This document shows positions 428 to 36,630 of a stretch of DNA of 64,000 bases, in pieces. How positions within the stretch are numbered: position 1 is the first letter of the stretch; each line of letters opens with the position of its first letter. This DNA is from Escherichia phage vB_EcoM_SA20RB, in the sequence record OL960581; one strand, 5' to 3'. The notes beneath the pieces were generated by a model, which ran no database searches, was not told the DNA's origin, and saw only the letters and a list, made by a program, of their open reading frames with translations. The translations under genes and the position numbers were made by a program.

Positions 428-614
428 TATCTAAAATGTTGAAGTTAAAAGATACAGCCCAGTCAGTGCAGACCGTAACCTTTTTAATACAATTATCTTC
501 AACCTCTAGCGGTTCAAACCAATATTCAATAATTTCTTTATGCCCAATATCATCTTTTACTTCGCATTCAAAATGCTGACTCATCATAACATTTTTAAAT
601 TCATCAAAAGTCAT
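351..614 (-). CDS. Hypothetical small protein (46.2-like)
   Basis: ORF-track 87 aa; its ATG overlaps the gp47 stop (ATGA coupling). Confidence 0.5.
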   Translation of the reverse strand: MTFDEFKNVMMSQHFECEVKDDIGHKEIIEYWFEPLEVEDNCIKKVTVCTDWAVSFNFNILDNDTPKSLQDMAVSCIKDAYCEVFDI

Positions 615-1630
615 TGTGTTGCCTCTACATATAACTGATTTGCATATTGAATAAGTGCTTCGCGATCAGAATCAGTGATGTCTGGAATTGCATTAATGTA
701 TTCTTCCATCAACGTCTGAAGAGATTGAACTTCAACTTCTTCACTATCATCTGACTCGACAGAGTTATCAATCTTTGACACAACTCGTAATGAATGCACA
801 ACTTTTTCTAGTTCAGATTCGAACTTCGTCAGATTTTTGTCTACTTCAGTTACTATAACACGCACTGACAGATTTGTAAAATCTTTATAGTCAATTTTTC
901 CCTTAAATGGATATTGAATTCGACGATGCCAAGTAGTGTTGTTTGGAATAAATTCCATTCGTTCTGTTTCTGTATCAAACATCCAGAACCCACGAGGGTC
1001 ATTCTCGTCACCCGCAGTTAGTGTCCATGGTGTCCCAATATATCTGACGTTAGCAGCCTCAGAGATAGTATGGAAGTGACCAGACCACACTTCTTTGTAA
1101 GTCTTAAGGAAATCAGGTTCAAGACCGTGAGATTTCATTCCTTTATAAAAATAAAATCCATTCAGTTCCCAGTGACCAACACAAAAAGAAGCAGATGAAG
1201 TTTTGATGTGTTCAAGAATTTCACCAGTGTTTTCTTCACACATCCAAGGAATTAAATCAATCAAACATCCGTCAAAATCTACTGTAGTAGGCTTATCATA
1301 TACTTTAACATTAGGATATTTAGCCAAAAGCTCAGTAGAAGCATTTGGATGCATTACATTTTTATAGTGGAGATCGTGATTTCCTACAATAGTATGTAAT
1401 GTGATTCCAGCGGCATCAAGCATTTGAACTATTTCACGGGCAAACTCCATAGTTTTATGCGTGATCGCTTTTCGTACATCAAAAATATCACCGTATTGAA
1501 TCCATACAGTAATTCCATTTTTCTTAGAATATTCTATCGCTTGCTTAATTCCATCAATTTGAATACCGCGAATCCATTCATCATCAGCTTTAACGCCTAA
1601 ATGCCAATCACCCAAGTTTAGTATTTTCAT
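611..1630 (-). CDS. 47: Recombination endonuclease subunit gp47 (Mre11/SbcD-like phosphoesterase)
   Basis: 339 aa; N-terminus MKILNLGDWHLG and GNHD metallophosphatase motifs; length matches T4 gp47; adjacent to 46. Confidence 0.93.
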   Translation of the reverse strand: MKILNLGDWHLGVKADDEWIRGIQIDGIKQAIEYSKKNGITVWIQYGDIFDVRKAITHKTMEFAREIVQMLDAAGITLHTIVGNHDLHYKNVMHPNASTELLAKYPNVKVYDKPTTVDFDGCLIDLIPWMCEENTGEILEHIKTSSASFCVGHWELNGFYFYKGMKSHGLEPDFLKTYKEVWSGHFHTISEAANVRYIGTPWTLTAGDENDPRGFWMFDTETERMEFIPNNTTWHRRIQYPFKGKIDYKDFTNLSVRVIVTEVDKNLTKFESELEKVVHSLRVVSKIDNSVESDDSEEVEVQSLQTLMEEYINAIPDITDSDREALIQYANQLYVEATQ

Positions 1631-2231
1631 GGTGTCTTTTCCATCCTAATTTAGCTGCTTTTGAAACTAGTTCTTTAATTTTTCCTTTTGTCCATTCAGG
1701 ACCAGGAGGTTCATGACATAACATTTGCTTAACTCCGTTATTATACCATTTTTTACCTTTATTATGTGATGAAGCTTTAAATTTATTTGACCTTCCTTTT
1801 ACATAACCTTCTGGAATATACGGTAAAAAGGCAGATTTTCCTGTTAATGGGTCATGTGAATGTATGTTTCCTTTACAATTATGAGAACCATATAATGGAT
1901 GATTTTGTCCTTTAATATCTCTTCCAAATGAACCTTTTGGAGCAGCATATGACATATTAAAGAATAATGGATTTTTAACCGCATCATGCAAACGTTGATA
2001 ATATAGCTCGCATTTAATAGCTTCTTCGCGTGTATCAAATTCATCTAAAATGCATGAATCAAATAAATGTGGGTTATTTGAAAGTTCTTCATTATAAATT
2101 TTCTTATACTTTTTAGATAAAACTGATCCATGATATCCGGCTAAATGCCTGTCTAAAGATGTAGATCCAATATAAAAAGGAGGAAGTTTATCTCCACTAT
2201 ATATTGTTAAATAAGTTATATATTTTTTCAT
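1608..2231 (-). CDS. GIY-YIG-like endonuclease-like protein (Seg-like), putative
   Basis: 207 aa; N-terminal YLTIYSG...FYIGSTS resembles a GIY-(X8)-YIG module; basic Gly/Lys-rich C-terminal half; overlaps the gp47 start by 23 nt. Confidence 0.5.
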   Translation of the reverse strand: MKKYITYLTIYSGDKLPPFYIGSTSLDRHLAGYHGSVLSKKYKKIYNEELSNNPHLFDSCILDEFDTREEAIKCELYYQRLHDAVKNPLFFNMSYAAPKGSFGRDIKGQNHPLYGSHNCKGNIHSHDPLTGKSAFLPYIPEGYVKGRSNKFKASSHNKGKKWYNNGVKQMLCHEPPGPEWTKGKIKELVSKAAKLGWKRHHENTKLG

Positions 2232-2391
2232 ATATCAAGAACCGTCATTGAAATGCAAAATAAAATTATTGAAATAAATCCATCTGGAGTGCTAAAGAAC
2301 CCAATCCAACACGCTCTAGTGAATAGATAAAATGCGAGAAAAAGTATCACATATCCAAGAAATATCATTATATCAAACTCCGTATAAAGCT

Positions 2392-2409
2392 AAAGGGCCG
2401 AAGCCCTTT
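2392..2409 (-). terminator. GC-rich tetraloop hairpin AAAGGGC-CGAA-GCCCTTT just 3' of agt
   Basis: Perfect palindrome; T-rich flank on both strands. Confidence 0.5.
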
Positions 2410-3610
2410 ATTTTGTAATAATGTCAAACTGTTCTTTAAAGCAGAAGCTTGAATCTTGATGCTGATACAAAAATTCATAAGCTTTTTCGCGTTCACGGTC
2501 ATAAAGAGCTCGGTCAGATGACAGTTCTTTAATACGTTCAAATGTTGATTCCATGTCATTTTCATCAAACCAAACGATACCGCTATCATGAGAAATTAAC
2601 GGAGTATTATCAACACGGAATTTTAAATTTTCGCCAGTAGATTTCCAAAATACTGGAATTGTTCCACATGCACCAAGCTCGAGATGAGTATATTCTAAAG
2701 AACGTTGTAGATATTTTTTGTCCAACTTACTCAGCTGATAACCAAATCCGGATTTACTCATGCGCTCAAGCATTTCGCTATTTACATAACGGTCAAGAAT
2801 TTGCGTTGGCAAATTAGGAGCAATTTTAATTTGGTCTACTTGATGAAGACGATAATACTCGTATGGAATTCCTTTTTCTTTAATAGGAATGAACGCAGGA
2901 GAACGTTCCAGACCTTCCATAATAGTACTTAGCCCAGCAGGTTTAAGATGTTTTTCGTGAAAATCAAACATCTGATAAAAACCTTTCCATGTAGTCGTAC
3001 GACCAATCCAACGGTTGACATTCATGTTAATTTCAGAAACATCTTTCCAGTAGGTTGATCGAACCTTCGCAATATCCATAGGAGGCTGAAAGTTGTATAC
3101 AGTCGGTGCTTCTTCAATATCATCAAACAGAGAAACTGTTTCTGGATACCATTCTTTCATCAAAACTTTATTAAAATCACCATTATCAGAATGACTAAAA
3201 ATAACATCAGCTCGACGAACAGTTTCTTCTAATCCCAAATTTCGGCGCAAAGAAAGAGAAGAATGGTCATGTTGATAAACTACAACACGAACTGAAGGTT
3301 TAATGTTATCAATAATTTTTTTATAGTTATTAATAGTGTCTTCTTCGACTGAAGTAGCAGGAACTGAATTGATAATTAGAATATCACAATCATTTACCAG
3401 CTTAAGTGTTTTATCGTATTCTTTTGCCAATAAAACCGGAATTGAAAATGATTTATAATCATGCGCGCAATTACGAGTAAATGATTTATCTTTAGCATAA
3501 ACCAAAGTTACTTCATGACCATTTTTAATAAACCAATCACGCTGCTCGAGAGAAAATTTAGTTACGCCGCAACCTTCAAGACCTCGAGCCATAAAAATAC
3601 ATACTTTCAT
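2408..3610 (-). CDS. agt: DNA alpha-glucosyltransferase
   Basis: 400 aa, matches T4 alpha-gt length and N-terminus MKVCIFMARGLEGCGVTKF. Confidence 0.9.
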   Translation of the reverse strand: MKVCIFMARGLEGCGVTKFSLEQRDWFIKNGHEVTLVYAKDKSFTRNCAHDYKSFSIPVLLAKEYDKTLKLVNDCDILIINSVPATSVEEDTINNYKKIIDNIKPSVRVVVYQHDHSSLSLRRNLGLEETVRRADVIFSHSDNGDFNKVLMKEWYPETVSLFDDIEEAPTVYNFQPPMDIAKVRSTYWKDVSEINMNVNRWIGRTTTWKGFYQMFDFHEKHLKPAGLSTIMEGLERSPAFIPIKEKGIPYEYYRLHQVDQIKIAPNLPTQILDRYVNSEMLERMSKSGFGYQLSKLDKKYLQRSLEYTHLELGACGTIPVFWKSTGENLKFRVDNTPLISHDSGIVWFDENDMESTFERIKELSSDRALYDREREKAYEFLYQHQDSSFCFKEQFDIITK

Positions 3611-3660
3611 TTAATATCCTCATTGTTTTGGTTTATTTTACCAAAAATTTATAAAGCAAT

Positions 3661-3680
3661 ATAGGAGCCGAAGCTCCTAT
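3661..3680 (-). other. Hairpin ATAGGAGC-CGAA-GCTCCTAT in the agt leader region
   Basis: Perfect inverted repeat around a CGAA tetraloop. Confidence 0.4.
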
Positions 3681-3853
3681 CCGCATAATACACCATACAG
3701 AGGCTCATTAGAGCTTCTAAATTTTATACGTTTATGTGTTATAGTTCCTTCTGCTTTAGCTTTATCATGAGACTCTTTAAAGCGCCTCATCATTTCTACT
3801 TTAGAGGAACGAATTTTATTATAATCTATTTCACAAGTCTGGGCGTTCATCTT

Positions 3854-4060
3854 TCACAGTTGCCACCATTTTTTGACTTGATAGGAATCAACCCACACTT
3901 TCATATTAGGGTCTGCTCTTACAATAGGAGGATTAACTTCTTTAATTGAACTATCATGGTATTCTTTTTCAGAAATTTTCACGCAAAGATGACCATTCAA
4001 AGATTCAGTAAATCCTGCATTAATTTTAAGACGCTTGAATTTTACGCGTGTAAGCATCAA
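3854..4060 (-). CDS. Hypothetical protein
   Basis: ORF-track 68 aa, in the minus-strand early gene series. Confidence 0.4.
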   Translation of the reverse strand: MMLTRVKFKRLKINAGFTESLNGHLCVKISEKEYHDSSIKEVNPPIVRADPNMKVWVDSYQVKKWWQL

Positions 4061-7650: not shown

Positions 7651-8121
7651 TTAATCATGTTTCCACACCCCATCGGTATTTGACCAAAGTCGCTGATTAT
7701 CTGATCCTCGCCACAGCTTTTTGGTAGGAAGATTTTTCTCATACTTCCCATCAATAATAACATCAACATATTTAAGCATTTCTAGTTGTTTAATATCTTC
7801 AAATTTATATCCTGTCCACAACCAAATGCTTTTATTGGAATAAAGATTTTTTACTGTTTGAACCACAGAGTGAATAACATCTCGGTTATCAGGATAGAGA
7901 GGGTCTCCTCCAGTTATAGTTAATCCTTCTATATAATCATTATTCAAACATTCAATTAATTGTTCTAGTGTTTCACCAGTGAATGGAACACCATTTCTAG
8001 CATTCCATGTTGATTTATTATAACACCCTTCGCATTTATGCAAACAACCTGTAACGAAAAGAACTGTCCTGCATCCAGGACCATTAACAAAGCAGCATGG
8101 GTATATTCTGTCATAATTCAT
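7651..8121 (-). CDS. nrdG: Anaerobic ribonucleotide reductase activating protein (radical SAM)
   Basis: 156 aa; CxxxCxxC cluster in GCLHKCEGCYN; length matches T4 NrdG. Confidence 0.92.
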   Translation of the reverse strand: MNYDRIYPCCFVNGPGCRTVLFVTGCLHKCEGCYNKSTWNARNGVPFTGETLEQLIECLNNDYIEGLTITGGDPLYPDNRDVIHSVVQTVKNLYSNKSIWLWTGYKFEDIKQLEMLKYVDVIIDGKYEKNLPTKKLWRGSDNQRLWSNTDGVWKHD

Positions 8122-8950
8122 TTATATATTTCCAATTATAGCCTTCAACACTTTTACGTTCGCCATTTAAACATTTTAAAATATTTCCTTTGCTAGAAAT
8201 ATTAAAATATTTTGCTGCGTCTGGTATATAATTAAATGTTTTTAAAAGAACACCATCTTTATATGCGCCAAATAAATTAAGAGTATATTTTTCTCGAAGA
8301 CGCTGATGTTTCCTTTTCATAACCTCAGGATTTGCATACGCCAACCTCAATGAATTTCTATGTTTTTCTTTTACTTCAGGTTTTTGCATTGCTAACTTAG
8401 TTAGCCTGGAAATTTTATTTCTAACTTCGTCAGTTTTCATTGCATTTGACAAATTTAATAAAGTTTTATTTCTAACTTCAGGTTTTTGCATTGCTAACTT
8501 AGTTAGTTCTCTATGTCTTTTTCTAAAATCGTCATCCTTCCATATATTTTTCGATAATTTTGACATAGAGCGGTGAAATAATTCCTTTTCACTGGAATAC
8601 AATTTAAAAATTTCATCCAATTCATCCGCATTAAATCTATCGGTATTCGAGTTTATCATTCTATGAAAGGCATAACACATTTTACTATTGCTTGTTTTAG
8701 CTAAATAGTAATGAGCTAACGCATGGTCATAATATGACAAATTAACAATATTCCATTTATCTGTTTTATATTCAGGAAATATAGATTTGGGAAGCACGTG
8801 ATGTGCTTCCGTTTTTCCTTTTATTTTAGGATTATTATAATTTTTTGTTATCAAATCAACATATGACAATAGTAAATCATTATTTTCTTCAAATATTAAA
8901 GCTAATTTATCATTCACAAAATCGCAAGGATAAAATCTATCGTAATTCAT
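8111..8950 (-). CDS. mobC: HNH-family homing endonuclease-like protein (MobC-like) between nrdD and nrdG
   Basis: 279 aa; HNH-like EAHHVLPKS...NIVNLSYYDHALAH; repeated TKLAMQKPEV module; same position as T4 mobC. Confidence 0.75.
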   Translation of the reverse strand: MNYDRFYPCDFVNDKLALIFEENNDLLLSYVDLITKNYNNPKIKGKTEAHHVLPKSIFPEYKTDKWNIVNLSYYDHALAHYYLAKTSNSKMCYAFHRMINSNTDRFNADELDEIFKLYSSEKELFHRSMSKLSKNIWKDDDFRKRHRELTKLAMQKPEVRNKTLLNLSNAMKTDEVRNKISRLTKLAMQKPEVKEKHRNSLRLAYANPEVMKRKHQRLREKYTLNLFGAYKDGVLLKTFNYIPDAAKYFNISSKGNILKCLNGERKSVEGYNWKYINEL

Positions 8951-10230
8951 TGGTGTTTAACCCTATGCATGATTTCTTTATTTTTTCCGAGATTAAATCC
9001 GCGTTCATTCGGATTTCCCAAATAACCACAAGTTCTTCTTATTGTGTTCATCTTTTTAGGATCAGTTTCTCCACAAATAGAACAAACAAATCCGTTTTCA
9101 GTAGGAGTCATTTCATGTGTACTTCCACATGTAAAACATTTATCTACTGGCATGTTAACACCAAAATAATCTAAATGTTGTGCAGCATAATCCCATACAG
9201 CCTCAAGACCTTTTAAGTTATTTTTCATATCAGGAAGTTCAACATAAGAAATGTGACCACCTGTCGCAATGAAATGATATGGGGCTTCGCGAGAAATCTT
9301 TTCAAATGGAGTGATATTTTCTTCTACTGAAACATGGAAACTATTAGTGTACCAGCCTTTATCAGTAACATCTTTTACACTTCCATATTTTTCAGTATCA
9401 AGTTTACAGAAGCGATAACAAAGGTTTTCAGCAGGTGTAGAATACAAGCTAAAAGCAAAACCAGTTCTTTCAGTCCACTGCTTAAGACGAGCATTCATTT
9501 TAGTTAAAATTTCCTGTCCAATATCACGACCGACAAGAATATTCAATTCGTGAATACCAATGTATCCTAGGGACACTGAACTTCTACCGTTTTTAAATAA
9601 CTCAATTATGTCGTCATCAGGTTTAAGACGAACCCCGAATGCACCTTCTTGGTAAAGAATAGGAGCAACAGTAGCTTTAACTCCTTTTAAGGAACTAATT
9701 CTACACATCAATGCTTCAAAACATAAATCCATTCTCTCATTGAACAATTCGGCAAATTTCTGTTCATTGAACTGTGTTCCAATATAAGAATCTAATGCGA
9801 TACGAGGAAGATTCAGTGTTACAACACCAAGATTATTACGTCCATCAAGAATTTCATTACCAGTCGAATCTTTCCATACGCTCAAGAAACTACGGCAACC
9901 CATTGGAGAAACAGGAACAGATGAACCAGTGATAGCTCTATTGTTCTTAGCTGAAATAATATCAGGATACATCCTTTTGCTTGCACACTCTAGAGCAAGC
10001 TGCTTAATATCATAGTTCGGATCGTCTTTGTAAAGATTAACACCTTCTTCAACGAACATGACAAGTTTAGGGAAAATAGGAGTTATCCCATCACGACCAA
10101 GACCTTTGATACGATTTTTCAGAATTGCTTTCTGAATCATTCGTTCAGTCCAGTCAGTTCCCGTACCAAATGTAATTGTTACAAAAGGCGTTTGACCATT
10201 AGAGCTGAAAAGTGTATTTACTTCATCATT
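8947..10230 (-). CDS. nrdD: Anaerobic ribonucleotide reductase NrdD, exon 2 (5' boundary approximate)
   Basis: C-terminal RRTCGYLG glycyl-radical motif and CxxC...CxxC zinc site; the ORF's first ~16 codons (TTG start) are intron read-through. Confidence 0.88.
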   Translation of the reverse strand, partial: NDEVNTLFSSNGQTPFVTITFGTGTDWTERMIQKAILKNRIKGLGRDGITPIFPKLVMFVEEGVNLYKDDPNYDIKQLALECASKRMYPDIISAKNNRAITGSSVPVSPMGCRSFLSVWKDSTGNEILDGRNNLGVVTLNLPRIALDSYIGTQFNEQKFAELFNERMDLCFEALMCRISSLKGVKATVAPILYQEGAFGVRLKPDDDIIELFKNGRSSVSLGYIGIHELNILVGRDIGQEILTKMNARLKQWTERTGFAFSLYSTPAENLCYRFCKLDTEKYGSVKDVTDKGWYTNSFHVSVEENITPFEKISREAPYHFIATGGHISYVELPDMKNNLKGLEAVWDYAAQHLDYFGVNMPVDKCFTCGSTHEMTPTENGFVCSICGETDPKKMNTIRRTCGYLGNPNERGFNLGKNKEIMHRVKHQ

Positions 10231-11273
10231 ATATTCAGCATGAGTCGCAAATTCATGCCCGTTTATATGAAACAACAAAATTTGGATAGTCCATAGATAT
10301 GCAACGTTCTTTTATAGTGCTAGGATGAAAATTTAGCGCTTTAGCTGCTTCTATATAAGACGTATACTTAATACCGTCAACAACCACATATTCAGGAACT
10401 TTATGAATAGTAGTCTTAATACTCAAAACAAGAGGATGAGTTTCGACTTCACTTTCAGTGCAATTTAAATATTCCGCTGCTTTTTTAAAACTTCTAAAAG
10501 TTTTATTTTTAAGCTTTATCGATACTTGTTTTTTACTTTTTCGACTATTGATATTATTTTGCACATGTTCCTTAGATCTTCCGTTTTTAGCATAATATTC
10601 AGCTACAGAAGATTTTATATTGTTTTTATGAGATTCGGATAACACTTTACCCTTATGAGCATCTCTTAATTTTTGAATATGTTCTTCAGTATCCGGATGC
10701 TTATAAAACTTTTTACCGCCTATGGATTTATTTAAACATTTTTTGCTATAAAAATATTTACGTATGACCTCTTCTTCATGTTTTAATGCATCTTTATAAC
10801 TATCAAATGTTTTTAAAATTATCCATTTAGTAGGTGTATCAGTTTTTAAGCGTTCATTTATATACTTAGATGACGTTGTGTAAGTTTTCCAGTTTGTGGG
10901 CTTGTTTTTAATTGTTCTAAATTTTTTATAACCGATATAAATGTCGCCATTAGAAAACTTAACTAAGTATGTAAATGCGTCTTTATCTTTTATTTTAGTA
11001 CAACGTCTTTTTATCCATTTCATTGTTTCACCTCGTATTCATAAGATAATCTTATTTATACAAGATGACTGCTGCATGTCGCCATGCAGATTAGACTATA
11101 TCTTCATCTTTCGATGCCGGCCGTTTCGAATAGCATTAGCTTCTATTCTACACCGTTACATTCATCACGGTTAGTCGTTAGGCATTTAGTTCAAAAGAAC
11201 ATTTAGCACGGGATTGTCTACTAGAGAGGTTCCCCGTTTAGACCGGTTTTACATGAGCCTGAATTAAATTAAC
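10231..11273 (-). mobile_element. Group I self-splicing intron in nrdD (sunY-type), boundaries approximate
   Basis: nrdD frame broken by a stop at 11264; about 1 kb insert carrying an endonuclease ORF; ribozyme-core-like sequence CUAAACGGGGAACCUCUCUAGUAGACAAUCCCGUGCUAAAUG on the minus strand near 11150-11250. Confidence 0.8.
10253..11023 (-). CDS. Intron-encoded GIY-YIG homing endonuclease (I-TevII-like)
   Basis: 256 aa inside the nrdD intron; N-terminal FTYLVKFSNGDIYIGYKK GIY-YIG module; T4 I-TevII is 258 aa. Confidence 0.8.
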   Translation of the reverse strand: MKWIKRRCTKIKDKDAFTYLVKFSNGDIYIGYKKFRTIKNKPTNWKTYTTSSKYINERLKTDTPTKWIILKTFDSYKDALKHEEEVIRKYFYSKKCLNKSIGGKKFYKHPDTEEHIQKLRDAHKGKVLSESHKNNIKSSVAEYYAKNGRSKEHVQNNINSRKSKKQVSIKLKNKTFRSFKKAAEYLNCTESEVETHPLVLSIKTTIHKVPEYVVVDGIKYTSYIEAAKALNFHPSTIKERCISMDYPNFVVSYKRA

Positions 11274-35771: not shown

Positions 35772-35848
35772 TGGTCGAGGCAGAAGGATTCTAACCTTCA
35801 ACCAACGGATTAGAAATCCGTTGCTCTATACAATTGAGCTATGCCCCG
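35772..35848 (-). tRNA. tRNA-Arg (anticodon UCU), CCA encoded
   Basis: Hand fold: acceptor CGGGGCA/UGCCUCG, D stem GCUC/GAGC, anticodon stem ACGGA/UCCGU with loop UUUCUAA, T stem GAAGG/CCUUC. Confidence 0.8.
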
Positions 35849-35851
35849 TAA

Positions 35852-36517
35852 TTAAAATTTCATTTTTCGACCTTTAAACCATCCTTCTGGAATTGGGTCA
35901 GTTTTCTTAATACGTTTAGAAACTTTTTCATCTAATGAATGAATCCACATCATACCAAATTGGGAATTCTTTTCACCCTGTTGATGTTTATTTCTGGCGT
36001 GAGATTCTTTCATTTTATTAATAGTTTCAGGAGTATGGGTCTTACCCAAGAAAGATTTAGTATTTAAAAATTTCTCTCTATACTTAGGATTATCCCAAAG
36101 CTGTTTAAACCTTTCTGAACCCATTTTACGATATTTTTCTTTAAGGTCTGGGTCGTTCTCAAATCTGGTTTTAAAAGCAGCAGCCCCTTTTAAGGAAGCT
36201 TCTTTCTTTTTATCCAAATATTCTTTAGTGTTTAAATGGTCCCAACCACCTTCACCACCTAATTTCAAATTATAAACATCAAGGCGCTTTAAAAACTCTT
36301 CAGTCACAATATTCTTTTCTGACTCAAACATAGAGGTTTTATCGTCAAAGAACTCTAATATTTCTTTAGAGAAATTTTCTATACCATACTTGTCTTGGGC
36401 TCTTTTTAATAATTTACCAGAACCCATATATCCATCATCTAAATTTTCGGTAGAATGAGCGCCTATATAGATTTTATTATTAATTTTATTTGTTATTTTA
36501 TAAGTGTAATGGAACAT
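35852..36517 (-). CDS. segB: GIY-YIG homing endonuclease SegB
   Basis: 221 aa; N-terminal YTYKITNKINNKIYIGAHST GIY-YIG motif; lies inside the tRNA cluster as T4 segB does. Confidence 0.85.
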   Translation of the reverse strand: MFHYTYKITNKINNKIYIGAHSTENLDDGYMGSGKLLKRAQDKYGIENFSKEILEFFDDKTSMFESEKNIVTEEFLKRLDVYNLKLGGEGGWDHLNTKEYLDKKKEASLKGAAAFKTRFENDPDLKEKYRKMGSERFKQLWDNPKYREKFLNTKSFLGKTHTPETINKMKESHARNKHQQGEKNSQFGMMWIHSLDEKVSKRIKKTDPIPEGWFKGRKMKF

Positions 36518-36558: not shown

Positions 36559-36630
36559 TGGCCCTGGGTGGAATTGAACCACCATCTGGCGATTATGAGT
36601 CGCTTGCTTGAACCTTCCAGCTACAGGGCC
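36559..36630 (-). tRNA. tRNA with CAU anticodon (Ile by T4 synteny; Met-like anticodon)
   Basis: Hand fold: acceptor GGCCCUG/CAGGGCC, anticodon loop CUCAUAA, T arm GGUGG-UUCAAUU-CCACC. Confidence 0.75.

What the first reader, a model, noticed from the sequence alone, without database searches (positions are those of the whole stretch)
1608..2231. Possible GIY-YIG-like endonuclease between gene 47 and alpha-gt
The 207-aa ORF has an N-terminal YLTIYSG...FYIGSTS module and a basic Gly/Lys-rich C-terminal half, both typical of Seg-type homing endonucleases, and it overlaps the gene 47 start by 23 nt. I do not recall a homing endonuclease at this position in T4, so it may be a lineage-specific insertion.
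Basis: partly seen in the sequence, partly recalled or inferred. Interest (0 to 1): 0.5.

Follow-up and report, generated by a model that had tools for sequence, protein, structure and literature searches.

The report
Seg-type homing endonuclease beside gene 47
The 207-codon ORF is a real, selfish "homing endonuclease" gene of the GIY-YIG type, present in about one in eight T4-like coliphages directly in front of the recombination nuclease gene 47; it is an ordinary though unnamed member of a well-known class.

Summary
Window 1608-2231 (-) is an intact 207-aa ORF that overlaps gene 47 by 23 nt and is absent from T4.

It is a 601-nt insertion between 47.1 and 47, bounded by a 7-nt direct repeat (ATGAAAA).

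The N-terminal ~100 residues are a GIY-YIG domain:
- Pfam gives 19.9 bits for the ORF (below cut-off) and 25.4 bits for the family consensus (above it).
- Y7, Y20-I-G22, E75 and N92 are invariant in homologues.

The C-terminal half is basic and Lys/Gly-rich (pI ~10).

The gene occurs in ~68 of ~500-580 database phages that carry this locus. It is under purifying selection (pN/pS ~0.06).

Carriers differ from non-carriers by four synonymous changes in gene 47 codons 3-6 and by nothing else fixed within about 1 kb on either side.

Homologues sit at the same spot upstream of gene 47 in five Tevenvirinae genera. In two of these genera the first 300-360 nt of gene 47 look imported along with the insert.

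Best reading: a free-standing Seg-like homing endonuclease that targets the 5' end of gene 47. Cleavage has not been tested. This is a new member of a known kind, of modest interest. The RefSeq label "HNH endonuclease" is wrong.

The parts
1608..2231 (-). 207-aa ORF: a free-standing GIY-YIG (Seg-type) homing endonuclease gene
   Evidence: ORF list. PHROG 10820 at 2e-93 and phrog_314 'homing endonuclease' at 3e-18. Pfam GIY-YIG. Fold hits to I-TevI. pN/pS ~0.06.
1932..2231 (-). Residues 1-100: predicted GIY-YIG catalytic domain. Candidate active-site residues are Y7, Y20-I21-G22, R28, E75 and N92.
1608..1931 (-). Residues 101-207: flexible linker plus a basic Lys/Gly-rich putative DNA-binding region. 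It contains a G-x-NHPLYG motif and two beta-hairpins, one of them KKWYNNG...P.W.KG. The last 7 codons are read from gene 47 DNA.
   Evidence: Composition: pI 9.97. Model elements E123-136 and E161-172. IPEGY/W-x-KGR is shared with SegB. More distant homologues carry NUMOD3 repeats here.
1631..2231 (-). 601-nt segment inserted relative to the empty T4-type 47.1/47 junction
   Evidence: The anchor-to-anchor distance is 640 nt in carriers and 39 nt in T4, RB27, AugustSocin, ECML-134, RB32 and ime09. BLAST boundaries against T4.
2225..2231 (-). Upstream copy of the 7-nt direct repeat ATGAAAA (the ORF's start codon, overlapping the 47.1 stop)
   Evidence: Junction sequences.
1624..1630 (-). Downstream copy of the 7-nt direct repeat ATGAAAA (start of gene 47)
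   Evidence: Junction sequences. The SHFML-26 empty site equals a deletion between the two repeats.
1613..1622 (-). Four synonymous substitutions in gene 47 codons 3-6 (ATT TTA AAT TTA becomes ATA CTA AAC TTG) linked to the insert. This is the candidate recognition-site immunity patch.
   Evidence: These are the only fixed differences between 7 carriers and 6 non-carriers in 1 kb to the left and 1.3 kb to the right. The carrier-type 50-mer is at >=99% identity in 71 records, and about 500 others are at <=92%.
611..1630 (-). Gene 47 (Mre11/SbcD-like nuclease subunit): the constant downstream neighbour and the likely target gene
   Evidence: Annotation by homology to T4. Homologous endonuclease genes abut gene 47 in 5 genera. 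Diverged 5' tracts of gene 47 in AV109 and IME08.
2228..2368 (-). Gene 47.1 (46-aa predicted membrane protein): the upstream neighbour, whose stop overlaps the endonuclease start
   Evidence: PHROG 6693 at 1.5e-31. T4 annotation of 47.1. Sequence.

Best explanation
The ORF encodes a free-standing homing endonuclease of the GIY-YIG class, built like the T4 Seg proteins. It has an N-terminal catalytic domain, a flexible linker and a basic C-terminal DNA-binding region.

Proposed mechanism (inferred). In a mixed infection with a T4-like phage that lacks the gene, the protein binds the empty 47.1/47 junction, which is the very start of gene 47. It then makes a double-strand break there or nearby. 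The break is repaired by recombination from the carrier genome, which copies the 601-nt gene and a variable stretch of gene 47 into the recipient.

Self-protection (inferred). The carrier's own copy is protected because the insertion splits the site, and because gene 47 codons 3-6 are synonymously recoded.

Expression (inferred). The gene has no promoter of its own. It rides in the a-gt/47.1/47 transcription unit and is translationally interlocked: ATGA with 47.1 upstream, and a 23-nt overlap with gene 47 downstream.

What is shown: the fold and family, the insertion anatomy, the sporadic distribution, purifying selection, the linked recoding, the same site in five genera, and the imported flanks.

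What is inferred: nuclease activity, the exact target, and homing itself.
For: Fold and family:
- Pfam GIY-YIG is the only hit.
- The family consensus scores 25.4 bits, above the 22.6 cut-off. That equals the score of the window's own segB gene (25.5 bits), which lies between tRNA-Arg and the CAU-anticodon tRNA as in T4.
- The motif YIGxxSxxxLxxGYxGS is shared with SegB.
- Foldseek's top three hits are all I-TevI.
- Y7, Y20, I21, G22, E75 and N92 are invariant in 33 homologues.

Mobility:
- The insert is an exact 601 nt between 7-nt repeats.
- It is present in 68 records, against roughly 500-580 that hold the locus.
- Carriers belong to several Tequatrovirus species.
- pN/pS is about 0.06.

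Target:
- The only fixed carrier/non-carrier differences are four synonymous changes 9-18 nt from the junction.
- Gene 47 codon 4 is TTR in the three non-carriers examined (T4, RB69, JS98) and CTN in four carriers from four genera.
- Homologues abut gene 47 in Tequatro-, Jiaoda-, Dhaka-, Roskilde- and Mosigvirus, while their upstream neighbours differ.
- About 20 homologue clusters end in ...EN(S/T)..., which is gene 47's ATGAAAAT read in another frame.

Flank import:
- AV109 versus RB69: gene 47 is 60-73% identical over the first 360 nt and 97-100% after that.
- IME08 versus JS98: 78-87% over the first 300 nt, then 92-98%.
Against: - No cleavage or homing experiment exists for this protein or its family in the papers searched.
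- The ORF's own Pfam score is below the curated cut-off.
- Sequence searches against PDB chains found nothing.
- The canonical Arg position is not conserved in the family: R/K in 27, N in 5 and Q in 1 of 33.
- The four linked substitutions lie 9-18 nt from the insert, so linkage alone would keep them associated. They also change the endonuclease's own overlapping tail (NFKFR to NTKLG), so they need not be immunity changes.
- ERS-1 carries the insert with T4-type alleles, though that record is UNVERIFIED and full of frameshifts.
- No NUMOD3 or other DNA-binding Pfam domain is detected in this particular protein.
Confidence: 0.8

Rival explanations
1. It is a former homing endonuclease that has been domesticated or has lost nuclease activity. 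It would now act as a DNA-binding protein, a regulator of the 47.1/47/46 operon, or a general weapon against competing phages rather than as a self-propagating element.
For: Purifying selection (pN/pS ~0.06) is also expected for a domesticated gene. The canonical Arg column is variable. The tight translational interlock with essential gene 47 would make loss costly whether or not the gene still homes.
Against: The sporadic ~12-14% distribution across species, the empty site in SHFML-26, the conserved insertion site in five genera, and the imported gene 47 flanks are signatures of ongoing mobility. E75, N92 and both Tyr residues are invariant.
Confidence: 0.12
2. It is an HNH endonuclease, as labelled in RefSeq records and in PHROG 10820.
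For: The label 'HNH endonuclease' appears on PHROG 10820 and on many RefSeq CDS.
Against: There is no HNH-family Pfam hit even at E<=10. The only catalytic-domain signal is GIY-YIG. Both fold searches return GIY-YIG domains and no beta-beta-alpha-Me proteins. Other depositors call homologues 'GIY-YIG homing endonuclease'.
Confidence: 0.01
3. It is a homing endonuclease, but its cleavage site is not at the start of gene 47. The site would lie further away, for example deeper in gene 47 or in a-gt, as with SegF and SegG, which by my recollection cut a few hundred bp from their genes.
For: The diverged tracts in AV109 and IME08 extend 300-360 nt into gene 47. The SHFML-26 empty site carries the recoded codons without the gene, which a break on the gene 47 side of those codons could produce. 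Carriers vary less than non-carriers in the 3' part of a-gt (20 versus 89 variable sites over window 2600-2999), though the non-carriers were sampled to be diverse.
Against: No fixed carrier/non-carrier differences exist anywhere in the ~2.3 kb of flank examined except codons 3-6. The insertion point is identical to the nucleotide relative to gene 47's ATG in all genera.
Confidence: 0.25

Closest known systems
SegB of phage T4 (free-standing GIY-YIG homing endonuclease in the tRNA cluster; PMC2330249)
   Same: Both are free-standing genes in a T-even genome and are similar in size (207 versus 221 aa). Their Pfam GIY-YIG scores are equally weak (25.4 for the family consensus versus 25.5). They share YIGxxSxxxLxxGYxGS after the YIG strand and a C-terminal IPEG(Y/W)xKGR motif. 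The window's own segB copy sits at 35855-36517 between tRNA genes.
   Different: Overall BLASTP similarity is marginal (best E 0.003 over 13 residues). SegB has a detectable NUMOD3 motif, and this ORF does not. The insertion site and presumed target differ: the start of gene 47 here, tRNA genes for SegB. SegB's activity is demonstrated, while this protein's is not.
I-TevI (intron-encoded GIY-YIG homing endonuclease of T4 td)
   Different: This gene is free-standing rather than intron-encoded. It has no Zn finger or helix-turn-helix detectable (C118 is not conserved). Sequence similarity is undetectable by HMMER against PDB.
SegF and SegG of T4 (intronless homing / localized marker exclusion; cited in PMC1564403 and PMC2988022)
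   Same: The biology is the same: a free-standing GIY-YIG gene inserted between conserved genes, predicted to cut the neighbouring conserved gene in phages that lack it, with nearby markers replaced. The AV109/RB69 and IME08/JS98 comparisons show such replacement.
   Different: The locus and protein subfamily differ. Here the gene's 3' end overlaps the presumed target gene's start codon, and its last codons are encoded by the target gene.

Membership tests
GIY-YIG nuclease superfamily (Pfam PF01541 / clan CL0418) | Profile match at or above the curated cut-off (22.6 bits) for this sequence itself | tested here: not met
   19.9 bits, E 9.3e-4, residues 4-84 against profile 2-74. It is the only Pfam hit but falls below the cut-off.
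GIY-YIG nuclease superfamily (Pfam PF01541 / clan CL0418) | Profile match at family level | tested here: met
   The consensus of the 33-member N-domain alignment scores 25.4 bits (E 1.8e-5), above 22.6. Thirteen of 33 members hit individually, best at 2.4e-5.
GIY-YIG nuclease superfamily (Pfam PF01541 / clan CL0418) | Three-stranded sheet flanked by helices (the GIY-YIG fold) | tested here: met
GIY-YIG nuclease superfamily (Pfam PF01541 / clan CL0418) | 'GIY' Tyr on strand 1, and 'YIG' Tyr-x-Gly on strand 2 | tested here: met
   Y7 and Y20-I21-G22 are invariant in 33 homologues. They lie in model strands 4-11 and 19-25.
GIY-YIG nuclease superfamily (Pfam PF01541 / clan CL0418) | Conserved Arg on the helix after the YIG strand (R27 in I-TevI) | tested here: inconclusive
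   R28 lies in helix 26-30 of this ORF, but the column is R/K in 27, N in 5 and Q in 1 of 33. The window's segB copy has N at the aligned position, and T4 SegB is an active enzyme (PMC2330249).
GIY-YIG nuclease superfamily (Pfam PF01541 / clan CL0418) | Metal-binding Glu (E75 in I-TevI) and C-terminal Asn (N90 in I-TevI) | tested here: met
   E75 is invariant and sits four residues after the invariant A71. N92 is also invariant. A local HMM alignment puts I-TevI residues 45-69 opposite ORF residues 46-70. The equivalence is positional and was not checked structurally.
GIY-YIG nuclease superfamily (Pfam PF01541 / clan CL0418) | Mg-dependent DNA cleavage | not testable with these tools
   No experiment is available, and no paper on this protein was found.
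Free-standing (Seg-type) phage homing endonuclease genes | Stand-alone ORF between conserved genes, with precise presence/absence among close relatives | tested here: met
   The 601-nt insert lies between 47.1 and 47. It is in 68 of roughly 500-580 records that carry the locus. T4, RB27, RB32, ECML-134, ime09 and AugustSocin have the empty site.
Free-standing (Seg-type) phage homing endonuclease genes | Catalytic domain fused to modular DNA-binding elements (NUMOD-type) | tested here: inconclusive
   The basic C-terminal half with predicted beta-hairpins is present. No NUMOD Pfam hit was found in this ORF. Fourteen of 33 homologues carry NUMOD3 in the same place.
Free-standing (Seg-type) phage homing endonuclease genes | Sequence differences at or near the insertion site that distinguish carrier from target genomes | tested here: met
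   Four synonymous changes in gene 47 codons 3-6 are the only fixed differences. Database counts are 71 at >=99% identity to the carrier type against about 500 at <=92%. Gene 47 codon 4 is CTN in carriers and TTR in non-carriers across genera. Whether these changes confer resistance is untested.
Free-standing (Seg-type) phage homing endonuclease genes | Co-conversion or replacement of flanking DNA | tested here: met
   AV109 versus RB69, and IME08 versus JS98: the gene 47 5' end is strongly diverged next to the insert and near-identical beyond it, and the upstream small ORFs are replaced.
Free-standing (Seg-type) phage homing endonuclease genes | Cleavage of the endonuclease-less allele, and preferential inheritance in mixed infection | not testable with these tools
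   This requires cleavage assays and phage crosses.
HNH endonucleases (database label for this protein) | HNH / beta-beta-alpha-metal motif or profile match | tested here: not met
   No HNH-clan Pfam family appears at E<=10. Neither fold search lists an HNH protein.

The most novel reading that the evidence does not exclude
This endonuclease family may have evolved a dedicated partnership with the start of the Mre11-like gene 47. Its reading frame is locked between 47.1 and 47: an ATGA overlap upstream, and a tail encoded by gene 47's first codons downstream. Translation of the selfish gene could therefore set the expression of the nuclease that resects the breaks it makes. On this reading the element would modulate the host phage's recombination machinery to favour its own homing, rather than being a passive passenger.
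Probability: 0.08. Interest if true: 0.5.

Novelty: new member of a known kind. Interest (0 to 1): 0.27.

Why it matters
The finding adds one more free-standing GIY-YIG homing endonuclease to the T-even repertoire, at a site (47.1/47) that the 2010 review's table of T4 endonucleases (PMC2988022) does not list. It gives a concrete, testable target, namely the first ~20 nt of the essential Mre11-like gene 47.

It also offers natural material for studying the life cycle of such elements. Carriers, sensitive empty sites and one recoded empty site (SHFML-26) all exist among sequenced phages, some of them in the public BASEL collection.

On the practical side, the finding corrects a propagated misannotation ('HNH endonuclease'). 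It also flags an unannotated copy in IME08. It does not change how such elements are understood.

Tried and rejected
Searches that found nothing:
- Sequence searches of the ORF and of the family profile against all PDB chains gave no meaningful hits.
- hhalign of the family alignment against a single I-TevI sequence matched only a spurious 19-column stretch in the C-terminal part.
- NCBIfam gave no hit.
- The afdb50 fold library was unavailable.

Expression signals, also blank:
- Sigma-70-like sites are no more frequent than in shuffles (11 found versus 12.4 expected).
- The nearest T4 late-promoter box TATAAATA upstream on the minus strand is at 11053-11060.
- The ORF's start region has no unusual RNA structure (z = 0.53).

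Corrected first impressions:
- I first read the shortened copies in KNP1/KNP5 as natural internal deletions. Translation shows a run of N, which is an assembly gap, so they are not evidence of decay.
- ERS-1's frameshifts sit in an UNVERIFIED record and were not used as evidence.
- Carriers show lower diversity than non-carriers in a-gt. I did not rely on this, because the non-carrier sample was deliberately spread across the identity range.

Literature: searches for a named endonuclease at this locus found none.
Full report
**1. The observation**

Window 1608..2231 on the minus strand is an ATG-initiated ORF of 207 codons.

- It starts MKKYITYLTIYSGDKLPPFYIGSTS.
- Residues 101-207 have pI 9.97, with 17 Lys and 13 Gly out of 107.
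- Downstream lies gene 47 (611..1630, minus strand). The two frames overlap by 23 nt (1608-1630).
- Upstream lies a 46-codon ORF (2228..2368). It matches PHROG 6693 and T4 gene 47.1. Its TGA overlaps the ORF's ATG (ATGA).
- alpha-gt lies at 2408..3610.

**2. A precise insertion relative to T4**

T4 (NC_000866) has 47 / 47.1 / a-gt / mobB and nothing else in this stretch.

- BLAST of the window against T4 aligns 1-1630 and 2225-3598 and leaves the ORF unmatched.
- Junction sequences from six genomes without the ORF (T4, RB27, AugustSocin, ECML-134, RB32, ime09) read ...CTTGATAT ATGAAAA TTTTAAATTTAGGTGAT....
- Genomes with the ORF read ...CTTGATAT ATGAAAA AATATAT...[ORF]...CACC ATGAAAA TACTAAACTTGGGTGAT....
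- The insert is therefore exactly 601 nt, bounded by a 7-nt direct repeat. That repeat supplies the start codon both of the new ORF and of gene 47.
- The ORF's last seven codons (H-E-N-T-K-L-G) are read from gene 47's first 23 nt in another frame.

**3. What the protein is**

Sequence evidence:
- Pfam returns a single family, GIY-YIG (PF01541), at E 9.3e-4 and 19.9 bits. This is just under the 22.6-bit cut-off.
- PHROGs places it in phrog_10820 (2e-93, labelled 'HNH endonuclease') and phrog_314 ('homing endonuclease', 3e-18).
- A database search found 173 relatives. In an alignment of 33 full-length relatives, the N-terminal ~100 residues are well conserved. The C-terminal part is modular and variable.
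- Thirteen of the 33 hit Pfam GIY-YIG individually, and 14 carry NUMOD3 repeats.
- The consensus of the N-domain scores 25.4 bits, above the cut-off. The window's own segB gene scores the same, 25.5 bits. That gene sits at 35855-36517 between tRNA-Arg and the CAU-anticodon tRNA, which is T4 SegB's site.
- The ORF shares the stretch YIGxxSxxxLxxGYxGS with segB, plus a C-terminal IPEG(Y/W)xKGR motif.

Structural evidence:
- An AlphaFold2 model is confident for residues 1-95 (pLDDT above 90). Its topology is beta-beta-alpha-alpha-beta-alpha.
- Foldseek's top three hits are all I-TevI (probability 0.98-1.0, target TM 0.56-0.64).
- No HNH signal appears in any search, so the 'HNH endonuclease' label in RefSeq records and on PHROG 10820 is a misnomer.

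**4. Catalytic residues**

- Invariant in the family are Y7 (the 'GIY' Tyr), Y20-I21-G22 ('YIG'), A71/E75 and N92. I equate E75 with the metal-ligand Glu and N92 with the motif-E Asn of I-TevI. That equivalence is positional, and the I-TevI sequence came from memory.
- The canonical Arg is less clear. This ORF has R28 in the short helix after the YIG strand. Across the family that column is R/K in 27, N in 5 and Q in 1 of 33. The window's segB copy has N at the aligned position, and T4 SegB is an active enzyme (PMC2330249).
- Near-invariant R68 and the invariant GYxGS motif may contribute to the active site. I could not resolve this without model coordinates.

**5. Distribution and selection**

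- The ORF occurs at 95-100% identity in 68 phage records. The surrounding locus occurs in roughly 500-580 records. That is about 12-14%, spread over several Tequatrovirus species and hosts.
- Among intact copies, synonymous differences dominate. For the window versus TadeuszReichstein there are 17 synonymous and 4 non-synonymous differences, giving pS 0.136 and pN 0.008. The protein is therefore under purifying selection.
- The shortened KNP1/KNP5 copies contain runs of N, which are assembly gaps.
- The ERS-1 copy is frameshifted, in an UNVERIFIED record. Neither is good evidence of decay.

**6. Where the target probably is**

- I compared 7 carriers with 6 non-carriers over 1 kb to the left and 1.3 kb to the right. 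The only fixed differences are four synonymous substitutions in gene 47 codons 3-6: ATT TTA AAT TTA becomes ATA CTA AAC TTG, at window 1613, 1616, 1621 and 1622.
- A 50-nt query carrying the carrier-type codons matches 71 records at >=99% identity. About 500 others match at <=92%.
- One of the 71, SHFML-26, has an empty site with the recoded codons. This is exactly the product of a deletion between the two 7-nt repeats. It could equally be a resistant empty site.
- Related genes (50-78% protein identity) lie immediately upstream of gene 47 in Jiaodavirus KPV15, Dhakavirus IME08 (intact but unannotated), Roskildevirus FBB1 and Mosigvirus AV109. Their upstream neighbours differ.
- About 20 homologue clusters end in ...EN(S/T/N)..., which is gene 47's ATGAAAAT read out of frame. 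All of these sit at the same nucleotide position.
- Gene 47 codon 4 is TTR in the non-carriers T4, RB69 and JS98. It is CTN in carriers from four genera.
- The region encodes MKILNLGDWH, the N-terminal Asp-x-His metal-binding motif of Mre11/SbcD-type phosphoesterases (general knowledge). Conserved sequences of this kind are typical targets for homing endonucleases.

**7. Evidence of horizontal movement with flanks**

- AV109 (carrier) and RB69 (non-carrier) are 97-100% identical over the 3' two-thirds of gene 47. They are only 60-73% identical over the first 360 nt next to the insert.
- IME08 versus JS98 shows the same pattern: 78-87% over the first 300 nt, then 92-98%.
- In AV109 a 1.46-kb cassette replaces 0.8 kb that includes a-gt.2 and a-gt.3. 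In IME08 a 607-nt segment replaces 157 nt that includes 47.1.
- These are the footprints expected from break repair that copies the endonuclease gene plus adjacent donor DNA.

**8. Expression**

- Nothing resembling a dedicated promoter stands out.
- A hairpin follows a-gt (2391-2410).
- 47.1 has a GGAG Shine-Dalgarno sequence.
- The ORF start overlaps the 47.1 stop, and the ORF end overlaps the gene 47 start.
- I infer co-transcription with the a-gt/47.1/47 unit and translational coupling. This is inference only.

**9. Verdict**

This is a free-standing GIY-YIG homing endonuclease gene of the Seg type, absent from T4 and inserted at the 47.1/47 junction. It most likely targets the first codons of gene 47.

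- Cleavage and homing are not demonstrated.
- I found no paper naming or characterising it.
- Several GenBank depositors already annotate it as a putative homing endonuclease.
- It is a new member of a known kind, of modest interest. Its use lies in the clean natural series of occupied, empty-sensitive and empty-recoded sites, and in correcting the 'HNH' label.

Noticed in passing
window 3611-3860 (between a-gt and a-gt.3): The window lacks mobB, the HNH homing endonuclease gene that T4 carries between a-gt and a-gt.2. As in RB27 and RB32, a-gt is followed directly by a 57-aa a-gt.2-like ORF at 3677-3850.
   Followed up: partly
window 35855-36517 (-): A segB orthologue of 221 aa with GIY-YIG plus a weak NUMOD3 signal. 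It lies between tRNA-Arg (35772-35848) and a CAU-anticodon tRNA (36559-36630), inside an 8-tRNA cluster.
   Followed up: partly
window 10256-11038 (-) and 8114-8956 (-): Two further endonuclease-like ORFs. The first is a 261-aa stop-to-stop reading frame (ATG at its sixth codon) matching SegE_GIY-YIG plus NUMOD1, possibly I-TevII-like. The second is a 281-aa stop-to-stop frame with an I-HmuI NUMOD-like C-terminus, possibly a mob-type HNH gene.
   Followed up: no
L005 1-536, L010 1-560, L020 1-87 (ECML-134, PhiZZ23, SHFML-26): These phages carry an 855-nt CDS annotated 'homing endonuclease' immediately downstream of 46.1, where T4 and RB27 have the start of gene 46. It is another sporadic endonuclease gene in the same neighbourhood.
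   Followed up: no
L015 ~1870-2500 (IME08, NC_014260): An intact 208-aa homologue of the ORF is not annotated in IME08, and the gp47 CDS there is annotated too long (1104 nt) because it runs into the endonuclease's 3' end.
   Followed up: yes
L014 1500-2560 (KPV15, NC_055715): Both the endonuclease homologue and gene 47 are split by frameshifts in KPV15. Gene 47's N-terminus (MKIIHSGDWH...) is annotated as a separate 39-aa protein. Sequencing errors are the likely cause, since gene 47 is essential.
   Followed up: partly
L020 1490-1610 (SHFML-26, NC_031011): An empty 47.1/47 junction that nevertheless carries the four carrier-type synonymous codons in gene 47. This is either a precise loss of the endonuclease gene through its 7-nt repeats or a resistant empty site.
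   Followed up: yes
RefSeq records and PHROG 10820: The family is widely labelled 'HNH endonuclease', although every profile and fold result points to GIY-YIG.
   Followed up: yes
homologues P0029-P0043 (e.g. Klebsiella phage Mexia ~5.8 kb; IME281; Yersinia TG1): A sister group keeps the same N-terminal domain. It has NUMOD3 repeats and a different C-terminus (...GFPEGSYKNILRQFERKYND), and it sits at other genome positions. This suggests that the DNA-binding module was swapped when the target changed.
   Followed up: no
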